Shown: one piece after another, positions 14,968 to 15,138 of the stretch
Position numbering within the stretch: the first letter of the stretch is position 1
How the letters are laid out: every line of letters starts with the position of its first letter
Virus record (IMG/VR): IMGVR_UViG_2651869694_000009
Coordinates: 1 to 27,070 of that record
Direction: 5' to 3' (one strand)
From: a virus
Taxonomy: Duplodnaviria > Heunggongvirae > Uroviricota > Caudoviricetes
Length of the DNA: 27,070 nt
Position numbers and translations under genes: made by a program
Notes under the pieces: generated by a model
Told to the model about the DNA's origin: nothing
What the model saw: only the letters and a program-made list of their open reading frames with translations
Databases searched by the model: none

Positions 14968-15138
14968 ATGTTTGTCAAACCTGTTAAAGGGCGGTCAGTT
15001 CCTGACCCTGCCCGCGGCGACCTTTTGCCCGCCGAAGGGCGAAATGTTGACGAGAACAACTACTGGCTGCGCCGTGAAGCAGTGGGTGATATCCGGCGCG
15101 TGAATAAAAAGGTGAATACCGATGACGATAAGCTTTAA
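14968..15138 (+). CDS. Small protein (56 aa) upstream of the sheath gene; absent from the ORF track because it is under 60 aa
   Basis: ATG 14968 to TAA 15136-15138, read directly from the sequence (MFVKPVKGRSVPDPARGDLLPAEG...). Overlaps the sheath start by 17 nt. Confidence 0.45.
   Translation: MFVKPVKGRSVPDPARGDLLPAEGRNVDENNYWLRREAVGDIRRVNKKVNTDDDKL

What the first reader, a model, noticed from the sequence alone, without database searches (positions are those of the whole stretch)
14968..15138. Unlisted 56-aa ORF between the tail-completion gene and the sheath gene
It falls below the ORF-track cutoff but fills the only gap in the tail module and overlaps the sheath start, implying translational coupling. 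Probably a small structural or assembly protein.
Basis: seen in the sequence. Interest (0 to 1): 0.2.

Follow-up and report, generated by a model that had tools for sequence, protein, structure and literature searches.

The report
Known small phage tail gene (DUF2635)
The 56-codon reading frame is a real, strongly conserved phage gene, the counterpart of phage Mu gp38 and SfV orf10, that always sits just before the tail-sheath gene; databases already annotate it and only its exact job in tail building is unknown.

Summary
The ORF at 14968..15138 (+) exists as described: ATG start, GAGGA ribosome-binding site, 56 aa, 17-nt overlap with the sheath gene. It is a real gene. It matches Pfam PF10948 (DUF2635, E 2.4e-16) and phrog_208. 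It is SfV orf10 and a homologue of Mu gp38. NCBI annotates it in about 1,090 of 5,426 complete E. coli genomes.

Purifying selection is strong (pN/pS 0.017 in SfV-like copies, 0.17 in Pseudomonas copies, above 2 in the other two forward frames). In 101 of 103 diverse viral contigs it lies immediately upstream of a Mu-type sheath gene, usually after a tail-terminator gene.

Headless Pseudomonas tailocin clusters keep terminator plus DUF2635 but have lost the neck genes. Published proteomics finds the tailocin orthologue abundant in particle preparations. No PDB chain matches the family, and cryo-EM of Mu left gp38 unresolved.

Best reading: a tail-module accessory protein acting at the terminator/sheath end, with a folded 45-aa docking domain and a disordered tail. 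It associates with tails or tailocins but is not an ordered stoichiometric virion part. Mechanism is inferred. The gene is already known, so interest is low.

The parts
14958..14962 (+). Shine-Dalgarno (GAGGA) of the small gene, overlapping the TGA stop of the terminator gene; 5-nt spacer to the ATG
   Evidence: Read directly from the sequence
14968..15138 (+). CDS of the 56-aa DUF2635 protein (SfV orf10 / Mu gp38 homologue)
   Evidence: ORF list; PF10948 E 2.4e-16; phrog_208 E 1.7e-25; 98% aa identity to SfV orf10; pN/pS 0.017
14968..15102 (+). Conserved folded N-terminal domain (residues 1-45): short beta-strands, helix 31-39, strand 42-45. Invariant in the close set: M1 P5 V11 D13 P14 P21 G24 R25 V27 W33 R36
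   Evidence: Alignments A1/A2/A3; AlphaFold2 pLDDT about 95 over residues 1-40
15103..15135 (+). Variable, predicted-disordered C-terminal tail (residues 46-56). Across the family it is 0 to more than 50 residues, rich in A/K/P/E/T/S
   Evidence: pLDDT below 50 for residues 49-53; tail composition over 91 distinct tails
15110..15114 (+). Ribosome-binding site (AGGTG) of the sheath gene, embedded in the small ORF
   Evidence: Read directly from the sequence
15122..15138 (+). 17-nt overlap between the small ORF and the sheath gene (different frames)
   Evidence: overlap or abutment is typical of the family
14399..14959 (+). Tail terminator gene (186 aa), conserved upstream partner
   Evidence: PF23840 E 3.7e-26; a gene is directly upstream in 94 of 95 diverse loci with room, and at least 80 of the 94 join the terminator family by iterated HMM
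15122..16618 (+). Tail sheath gene (498 aa), conserved downstream partner
   Evidence: Pfam sheath domains; phrog_165 E 1.5e-231; matches a 495-aa PDB 'Tail sheath protein' in 9khy/9ki1/9lj8 at E 5e-80, which I take to be Mu gp39; downstream of DUF2635 in 101 of 103 loci

Best explanation
SHOWN: the ORF is a genuine protein-coding gene of the Mu/SfV-type contractile-tail module. It belongs to family DUF2635 (PF10948, phrog_208), the family of Mu gp38 and SfV orf10. The protein has a compact N-terminal domain of about 45 aa and a short disordered tail. The gene is nearly always placed terminator -> DUF2635 -> sheath -> tube, abutting or overlapping the sheath start. It is kept in headless tailocins, so it serves the tail itself and not head-tail joining or DNA. 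Its tailocin orthologue is translated and abundant in particle-enriched preparations.

[quoted passage not shown] It is made together with the sheath by coupled translation. The folded domain docks on the tail or on an assembly intermediate, and the A/K/P-rich tail stays flexible. It remains associated with free tails and tailocins, but it is not an ordered, stoichiometric component of the mature virion. It would be either displaced or lost when the head joins or during purification, or bound too flexibly or sparsely to be seen.
For: Identity:
- Pfam, PHROG and annotation matches.
- 2,507 clusters at 50% identity match the family profile, nearly all 50-100 aa among the 150 listed.

Coding:
- pN/pS is 0.017 in SfV-like copies and 0.17 in Pseudomonas copies, against 2.1-2.3 in the other two forward frames.

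Fold:
- AlphaFold2 mean pLDDT 86.8; core about 95, tail below 50.

Synteny:
- 101 of 103 diverse viral contigs have the sheath start within -11 to +150 nt, followed by the tube gene.
- A gene is directly upstream in 94 of 95 loci, and at least 80 of the 94 are terminator-family.
- The same order holds in Mu, Acetobacter, Bordetella, Pseudomonas and Burkholderia phages with different head modules.

Tail rather than neck function:
- 47 of 47 Pseudomonas loci keep terminator-DUF2635-sheath-tube, and 41 of them show no SfV-like terminase, portal, head-completion or Neck1 gene upstream.
- Table S2 of PMC8319346 shows holin or a P2-like tail module directly upstream.

Expression and association (Carim et al. 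2021, Table S4, 30% ammonium-sulfate pellets):
- Pse04 orthologue: 93% coverage, NSAF 0.026, against terminator 0.018, sheath 0.051, tube 0.008.
- Pse05 orthologue: 88% coverage, NSAF 0.011, against terminator 0.006, sheath 0.055, tube 0.005.

Not an ordered virion part:
- No PDB chain matches the family profile.
- The Mu cryo-EM paper states gp38 could not be resolved.
- The probable distant homologue in phage 7-7-1 (gp125) is absent from the 24-protein virion proteome, and it is not mentioned in the 7-7-1 cryo-EM paper; its Milano counterpart gp19 is not mentioned in the Milano paper.
Against: - No direct functional or interaction data exist for any family member. The partner (terminator, sheath, or something else) is unknown.
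- The tailocin preparations are crude, with hundreds of host proteins. The tail assembly chaperone is also abundant in Pse04 (NSAF 0.054), so co-precipitation does not prove incorporation.
- The orthologue appears not to have been detected in the Pse11 sample (its tag occurs only twice in the file).
- The 7-7-1/Milano proteins are only probable homologues (hhalign probability 46%, E 2e-4; Foldseek E 0.02).
- Absence from symmetrised cryo-EM maps does not exclude a flexible or low-occupancy virion component.
- Rare long family members carry fibre-like or FN3 extensions, which would suit a permanently virion-bound anchor.
Confidence: 0.55

Rival explanations
1. It is a permanent minor structural protein of the mature virion: a 'sheath terminator' or small neck/tail-end decoration that binds through the 45-aa domain and projects its flexible tail outward.
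For: The curated Mu record AF083977 labels Mu_38 'putative sheath terminator protein'. It is abundant with about 90% coverage in tailocin particle preparations. Rare relatives fuse the same N-terminal domain to FN3, coiled-coil or fibre-like extensions, as expected of a virion anchor.
Against: The Mu paper reports terminator-tail maps at 3.5-3.8 A in which gp37 alone caps tube and sheath, and states that gp38 could not be resolved. No PDB chain matches the family profile. The probable homologue gp125 is missing from the 7-7-1 virion proteome, although a 3.2-kDa protein was detected there. There is no similarity to T4 gp15 or P2 gpS-type completion proteins in Pfam.
Confidence: 0.2
2. It is a sheath-specific chaperone. 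It binds newly made sheath monomers (hence the coupled translation) to stop premature polymerisation into polysheath, is released as the sheath assembles on the tube, and is never part of finished particles.
For: The gene is invariably placed immediately 5' of, and overlapping, the sheath gene. The protein is abundant. It is absent from solved virions. It is retained in tailocins, which still must assemble a sheath.
Against: A released 6-kDa soluble chaperone should not be enriched in a 30% ammonium-sulfate pellet at a level like the terminator, unless it is bound to aggregates or intermediates. P2/R-pyocin-type and T4-type sheaths are not known to need such a factor (general knowledge). Long variants occur in contigs with no sheath gene detected nearby.
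Confidence: 0.15
3. It is not a functional protein: either a chance ORF, or only a leader ORF whose translation delivers ribosomes to the sheath start.
For: It is short, many ORFs of similar size occur by chance, and it overlaps the sheath start.
Against: The amino-acid sequence is conserved across Alpha-, Beta- and Gammaproteobacterial phages. pN/pS is 0.017-0.17, against more than 2 in the other two forward frames. The fold is predicted with confidence. Peptides cover 88-93% of the orthologue. The sheath has its own ribosome-binding site.
Confidence: 0.01

Closest known systems
Enterobacteria phage SfV orf10 (SfVp10, NP_599042) and its copies in SfI, SfII, SfIV, ST64B and E. coli prophages
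   Same: 98% amino-acid identity, same length, same position between orf9 (terminator) and orf11 (sheath). Effectively the same gene.
   Different: The window allele has Val at residue 39, where most copies have Ala. Some records (SfIV, phiP27, VIT_AJPSC) leave the ORF unannotated.
Phage Mu gp38 (Mup38, AAF01116), also FluMu gp38; Pfam PF10948 DUF2635, phrog_208
   Same: Same family (tblastn 40% identity, E 3e-6). Same gene order K/gp37 terminator -> gp38 -> L/gp39 sheath, with a 4-nt overlap with the sheath gene. Same domain-plus-tail architecture.
   Different: Mu gp38 is 67 aa with a longer tail. The head and neck modules differ: the Mu cryo-EM paper reports no stopper (second head-tail joining) protein, whereas the SfV type encodes a head-closure protein and a Neck1 protein. 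Function is unknown in both.
Rp4 (SfV-like) R-tailocin gene OG0000019 of Pseudomonas (PFL_1215, PflQ8_1132 = EU982300 Orf10)
   Same: About 60% identity over the core. Same terminator-DUF2635-sheath order. The only family member with protein-level evidence.
   Different: It lies in a headless bacteriocin cluster and has a lysine-rich tail.
Agrobacterium phages 7-7-1 gp125 and Milano gp19
   Same: Same position between terminator and sheath, similar size (67-68 aa), the same motif pattern (P..G..iP..G..V....W...R...GDi plus an AKP-rich tail), and the top Foldseek hit in BFVD.
   Different: Below the Pfam threshold. Homology is only probable (hhalign probability 46%). Not detected in the virion proteome or mentioned in the cryo-EM papers.

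Membership tests
Pfam PF10948 (DUF2635) / phrog_208 | Profile HMM score above the curated gathering threshold | tested here: met
   59.6 bits against 26.6, E 2.4e-16, residues 3-47 on profile positions 1-45 of 46. phrog_208 E 1.7e-25.
Pfam PF10948 (DUF2635) / phrog_208 | Conserved core motif (F/Y)VKP..G..V.DP..G..LP..GR.V....YW.RR...GD(V/I) | tested here: met
   All family-wide invariant or near-invariant positions are present in the window protein (P5, D13, P14, L20, P21, G24, V27, Y32, W33, R35, R36).
Pfam PF10948 (DUF2635) / phrog_208 | Small stand-alone protein (about 50-100 aa): N-terminal domain plus variable low-complexity tail | tested here: met
   56 aa. Family median is 62 aa, range 51-143, over 101 loci. 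Tail composition.
Mu gp38 positional orthologue | Encoded between the tail terminator and the tail sheath of a Mu-type tail module | tested here: met
   Window gene order; Mu; 101 of 103 diverse loci; upstream terminator family.
Sheath terminator / tail completion proteins (T4 gp15, P2 gpS type), as the Mu record's label suggests | Sequence or fold relationship to known sheath-completion proteins | tested here: not met
Sheath terminator / tail completion proteins (T4 gp15, P2 gpS type), as the Mu record's label suggests | [quoted passage not shown] | tested here: inconclusive
   The Mu paper reports gp37 alone capping tube and sheath and states gp38 was unresolved. However, the tailocin orthologue is abundant in particle preparations.
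Tail assembly chaperone (lambda G/GT, P2 E/E+E', Mu gp41 type) | Located between tube and tape-measure genes, with a programmed frameshift | tested here: not met
   That role is filled by 16974-17243 (PF10109), with a T_TTT_TTC slippery site and a -1 frame extension 17210-17392. The small ORF shows no match to chaperone families.
Lambda gpFI C-terminal domain / YqbF-like small phage domains | Significant structural similarity | tested here: inconclusive

The most novel reading that the evidence does not exclude
DUF2635 could be a detachable placeholder or cap for the head-proximal face of the finished tail. It would dock on the terminator/top sheath ring of free tails, be displaced when the head's neck proteins bind (hence invisible in virion structures and virion proteomes), and stay in place on tailocins, which never join a head (hence abundant in tailocin preparations). 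The same 45-aa domain would then be a general docking module that some phages have extended into fibres or Ig/FN3-bearing appendages.
Probability: 0.15. Interest if true: 0.5.

Novelty: already known. Interest (0 to 1): 0.15.

Why it matters
As a gene call it adds nothing new. The ORF is SfV orf10 / Mu gp38 (DUF2635), and NCBI's pipeline annotates it in about a fifth of complete E. coli genomes.

The residual interest lies in the family. It is one of the few universally conserved genes of the Mu/SfV-type contractile tail, and of the Rp4 tailocins being developed as precision antibacterials, that still has no assigned role. The evidence conflicts: the protein is abundant in tailocin preparations but absent from virion structures. 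That contrast suggests a concrete, testable assembly step at the terminator/sheath end.

Tried and rejected
- PDB sequence searches with the single protein and with a family profile found nothing.
- NCBIfam returned no model. A literature search for 'DUF2635' found 0 papers, and 'FluMu protein gp38' found one paper, which I did not open.
- Rfam and promoter/terminator scans of the region found no RNA family or promoter and nothing notable next to the ORF, so there is no sign of an RNA element or an independent transcription unit.
- A search for natural fusions of DUF2635 to terminator or sheath found none. The apparent long ORFs in high-GC contigs are upstream read-through artefacts.
- The search for related loci with the diverse alignment A3 failed because no stretch was conserved enough. 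Single-protein seeds returned only close relatives. Diversity was obtained instead with a degenerate DNA motif.
- Co-folding DUF2635 with the terminator or sheath was considered but not run.
- Inter-protein covariation (DCA) was judged underpowered with about 100 effective sequences and was not run.
- The Backman et al. tailocin preprint was checked for proteomics detail but gave nothing usable in its main text.

Full report
**Observation.**
The window carries an ATG-initiated ORF at 14968..15138 on the + strand, encoding MFVKPVKGRSVPDPARGDLLPAEGRNVDENNYWLRREAVGDIRRVNKKVNTDDDKL.

- A GAGGA Shine-Dalgarno (14958-14962) overlaps the TGA stop of the upstream gene, 5 nt before the ATG.
- The ORF ends 17 nt inside the 498-aa sheath gene (ATG at 15122). 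The sheath's own AGGTG site (15110-15114) lies within the ORF.
- ORFs of this size are common by chance here: 60 ORFs of at least 30 aa overlap this 5-kb stretch. The case for a gene therefore rests on conservation.
- No Rfam family, promoter or nearby terminator is found around it, so it sits inside a continuous late operon.

**Context.**
The window is a SfV/SfI/SfII-like serotype-converting myovirus prophage, 96-98% nucleotide identity over this stretch. Gene order around the ORF:

| Coordinates | Gene |
|---|---|
| 13191-13514 | head-tail adaptor |
| 13511-13921 | head completion protein |
| 13896-14402 | Neck1 / tail completion |
| 14399-14959 | tail terminator (PF23840, E 3.7e-26) |
| 14968-15138 | the small ORF |
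| 15122-16618 | sheath |
| 16618-16974 | tube |
| 16974-17243 | tail assembly chaperone |
| 17385-19220 | tape measure |

**Identity.**
- The protein matches Pfam PF10948 (DUF2635) at E 2.4e-16, 59.6 bits against a 26.6 cut-off, and phrog_208 ('unknown function') at E 1.7e-25.
- In the SfV RefSeq record the same ORF is orf10, 'DUF2635 domain-containing protein; similar to phage Mu GP38'.
- tblastn finds it in 50 phage records. These include ST64B, phiP27, Mu/D108/SfMu (40% identity) and Pseudomonas, Burkholderia, Bordetella, Acetobacter and Serratia phages.
- The stretch occurs in 1,088 of 5,426 complete E. coli genomes. NCBI annotates it there as a DUF2635 protein flanked by 'phage tail terminator protein' and the sheath.
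- A profile search of 1.84 billion cluster representatives finds 2,507 family clusters at E of 0.001 or better. Nearly all of the 150 listed are 50-100 aa.
- The gene is therefore already known as a gene. Its function is not. A full-text search for 'DUF2635' returns no paper.

**Coding evidence.**
- All 81 SfV-like loci fetched keep an intact 56-codon frame.
- Among their 31 distinct DNA sequences plus the window's copy, 15 of 17 variable columns are third codon positions, and pooled pN/pS is 0.017.
- Among 42 distinct Pseudomonas core sequences, pN/pS is 0.17 in this frame and 2.1-2.3 in the two other forward frames.

**Anatomy of the protein.**
- Alignments show a conserved core of about 45 residues: (F/Y)VKP..G..V.DP..G..LP..GR.V....YW.RR...GD(V/I).
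- This is followed by a variable tail of median 17 residues, rich in Ala, Lys, Pro, Glu and Thr.
- AlphaFold2 with 39 sequences gives mean pLDDT 86.8, about 95 over residues 1-40. It predicts short strands, a helix at 31-39 and a strand at 42-45, with a disordered tail.

**Synteny.**
- A degenerate DNA motif for YWxRRxxDGDV pulled 120 diverse viral contigs, and 119 of them carry a DUF2635 hit.
- Of the 103 with at least 600 nt downstream, 101 have a Mu-type sheath gene starting within -11 to +150 nt, followed by the tube where the contig extends that far. The gap is -11 to +3 nt in 78 of the 101.
- A gene lies directly upstream in 94 of 95 loci with room. At least 80 of the 94 join the terminator family by iterated HMM, and that count was still rising when the five iterations ended. 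The other 14 are of similar size.
- The same triplet is seen in annotated phages with quite different head modules: Mu, phiAP1, PBb002, PG1 and BgVeeders33.

**Tailocins.**
- The Pseudomonas fluorescens Q8r1-96 cluster runs prtR, holin, bacteriocin cargo, then directly Orf9 (terminator-like), Orf10 (DUF2635), sheath and tube, with no head genes.
- Across 47 Pseudomonas genome loci, all 47 keep terminator-DUF2635-sheath-tube. Only 6 have SfV-like terminase, portal, head-completion and Neck1 genes upstream.
- The other 41 show none of these upstream. Those inspected are preceded by prtR plus holin or by what look like P2-like tail-module genes. The published Table S2 confirms this.
- So when the neck genes were discarded, the terminator and DUF2635 were kept. 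The protein serves the tail itself.

**Protein-level evidence from the literature.**
Carim et al. 2021 (PMC8319346) analysed 30% ammonium-sulfate pellets of induced lysates by MudPIT. Their orthogroup OG0000019 is the 182-nt gene between the terminator-like OG18 and the sheath OG20.

| Protein | Pse04 NSAF | Pse05 NSAF |
|---|---|---|
| DUF2635 orthologue (OG19) | 0.026 | 0.011 |
| Terminator (OG18) | 0.018 | 0.006 |
| Sheath (OG20) | 0.051 | 0.055 |
| Tube (OG21) | 0.008 | 0.005 |

- The orthologue has 93.3% coverage and 69 spectra in Pse04, and 88.3% coverage and 38 spectra in Pse05.
- Host proteins in the rows I read mostly lie between about 1e-4 and 3e-3.
- The Pse06 tag also appears a third time in the file, consistent with detection. 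The Pse11 tag does not.
- The preparations are crude, and the chaperone-like OG22 is also abundant in Pse04. This shows expression and co-precipitation, not incorporation.

**Counter-evidence.**
- The 2025 Mu cryo-EM study modelled portal, adaptor, terminator gp37, sheath, tube and baseplate at 3.3-3.8 A. It states that gp38 could not be resolved, and it reports that the terminator's C-terminal hairpin contacts the sheath.
- The top Foldseek hit in BFVD is phage 7-7-1 gp125. This is a 68-aa protein encoded between terminator gp124 and sheath gp126.
- A three-sequence profile (7-7-1, Milano, OLIVR4) aligns colinearly with the DUF2635 profile (hhalign E 2e-4, probability 46%). Homology is probable, not proven.
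- gp125 is not among the 24 virion proteins found by MS, although gp124, gp126, gp127 and a 3.2-kDa protein were.
- Neither gp125 nor Milano gp19 is mentioned in the cryo-EM papers on those virions.

**Interpretation.**
The firm conclusion is that this is a real, expressed, tail-module gene of a known family. The most economical mechanistic reading of the conflicting localisation data is an accessory factor acting at the head-proximal terminator/sheath step.

- It is co-translated with the sheath.
- It docks through its folded domain on tails or tail intermediates, and so is present in tailocin pellets.
- It is not an ordered stoichiometric part of the finished virion.

The rivals are a permanent minor structural 'sheath terminator' (the label used in the curated Mu record) and a pure sheath-monomer chaperone. 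The chance-ORF or leader-ORF reading is excluded.

Rare long relatives carry the same N-terminal domain fused to FN3, coiled-coil or fibre-like sequence, in contigs where no sheath gene was found nearby. They hint that the domain is a docking module. They also keep alive the more novel idea of a displaceable cap that is retained on tailocins.

**Verdict.**
Novelty is 'already known' and interest is low.

Noticed in passing
window 16974-17392 (slippery site 17225-17231): The tail assembly chaperone gene (16974-17243, PF10109) ends just after a canonical -1 slippery heptamer T_TTT_TTC. The ORF 17210-17392 lies in the -1 frame and runs to the tape-measure start (17385). This is the conserved chaperone frameshift product (P2 E/E+E' type). 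It fills the second 141-nt 'gap' in the tail module, so the small ORF does not fill the only gap.
   Followed up: partly
window 14399-14959; RefSeq Mu NC_000929, SfMu and D108 records: phrog_209, which matches the tail terminator here, is labelled 'portal protein'. The RefSeq re-annotations of Mu, SfMu and D108 carry 'portal protein' on gp37/K, which cryo-EM shows to be the tail terminator. This is a propagated mis-annotation.
   Followed up: partly
Phage records KC814930/NC_022749 (SfIV), OR799564, AJ298298/NC_003356 (phiP27), MT234341 (OLIVR4): The DUF2635 ORF (or, in OLIVR4, its distant counterpart) is found by tblastn, but no feature is annotated under it in these records. The small gene is often missed by annotators.
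   Followed up: partly
L085 3036-4244 (P0167, 402 aa); L084 1580-3793 (P0190, 737 aa); L188 705-1343 (212 aa); P0229, P0236, P0253: Rare long proteins start with a bona fide DUF2635 domain and continue into FN3, coiled-coil, or 'SGTTAQRP...' sequence that I recall as typical of tail-fibre N-termini. In L085, L084 and L188 no sheath gene was found nearby; genomic context was not examined for P0229, P0236 and P0253. This suggests the 45-aa domain can serve as an N-terminal docking module.
   Followed up: partly
L090-L136 (Pseudomonas genomes): Many SfV-like (Rp4) tailocin modules sit directly after a second, P2-like tailocin module (tape measure, gpU, gpD). The SfV-like module begins exactly with the terminator and DUF2635 genes.
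   Followed up: partly
window 13511-13921 versus SfV orf7 (L001 5326-5622): The head-completion ORF in the window is 136 aa, starts at the adaptor gene's stop (ATGA overlap), and matches Pfam PF05521 from residue 16. SfV orf7 is annotated as only 98 aa after a 110-nt gap, so its start looks mis-set and truncates the domain.
   Followed up: no
window 15082-15084 (codon 39): The window allele encodes Val39, where most SfV-like copies have Ala. It is one of only two amino-acid variants seen among 81 related loci.
   Followed up: yes
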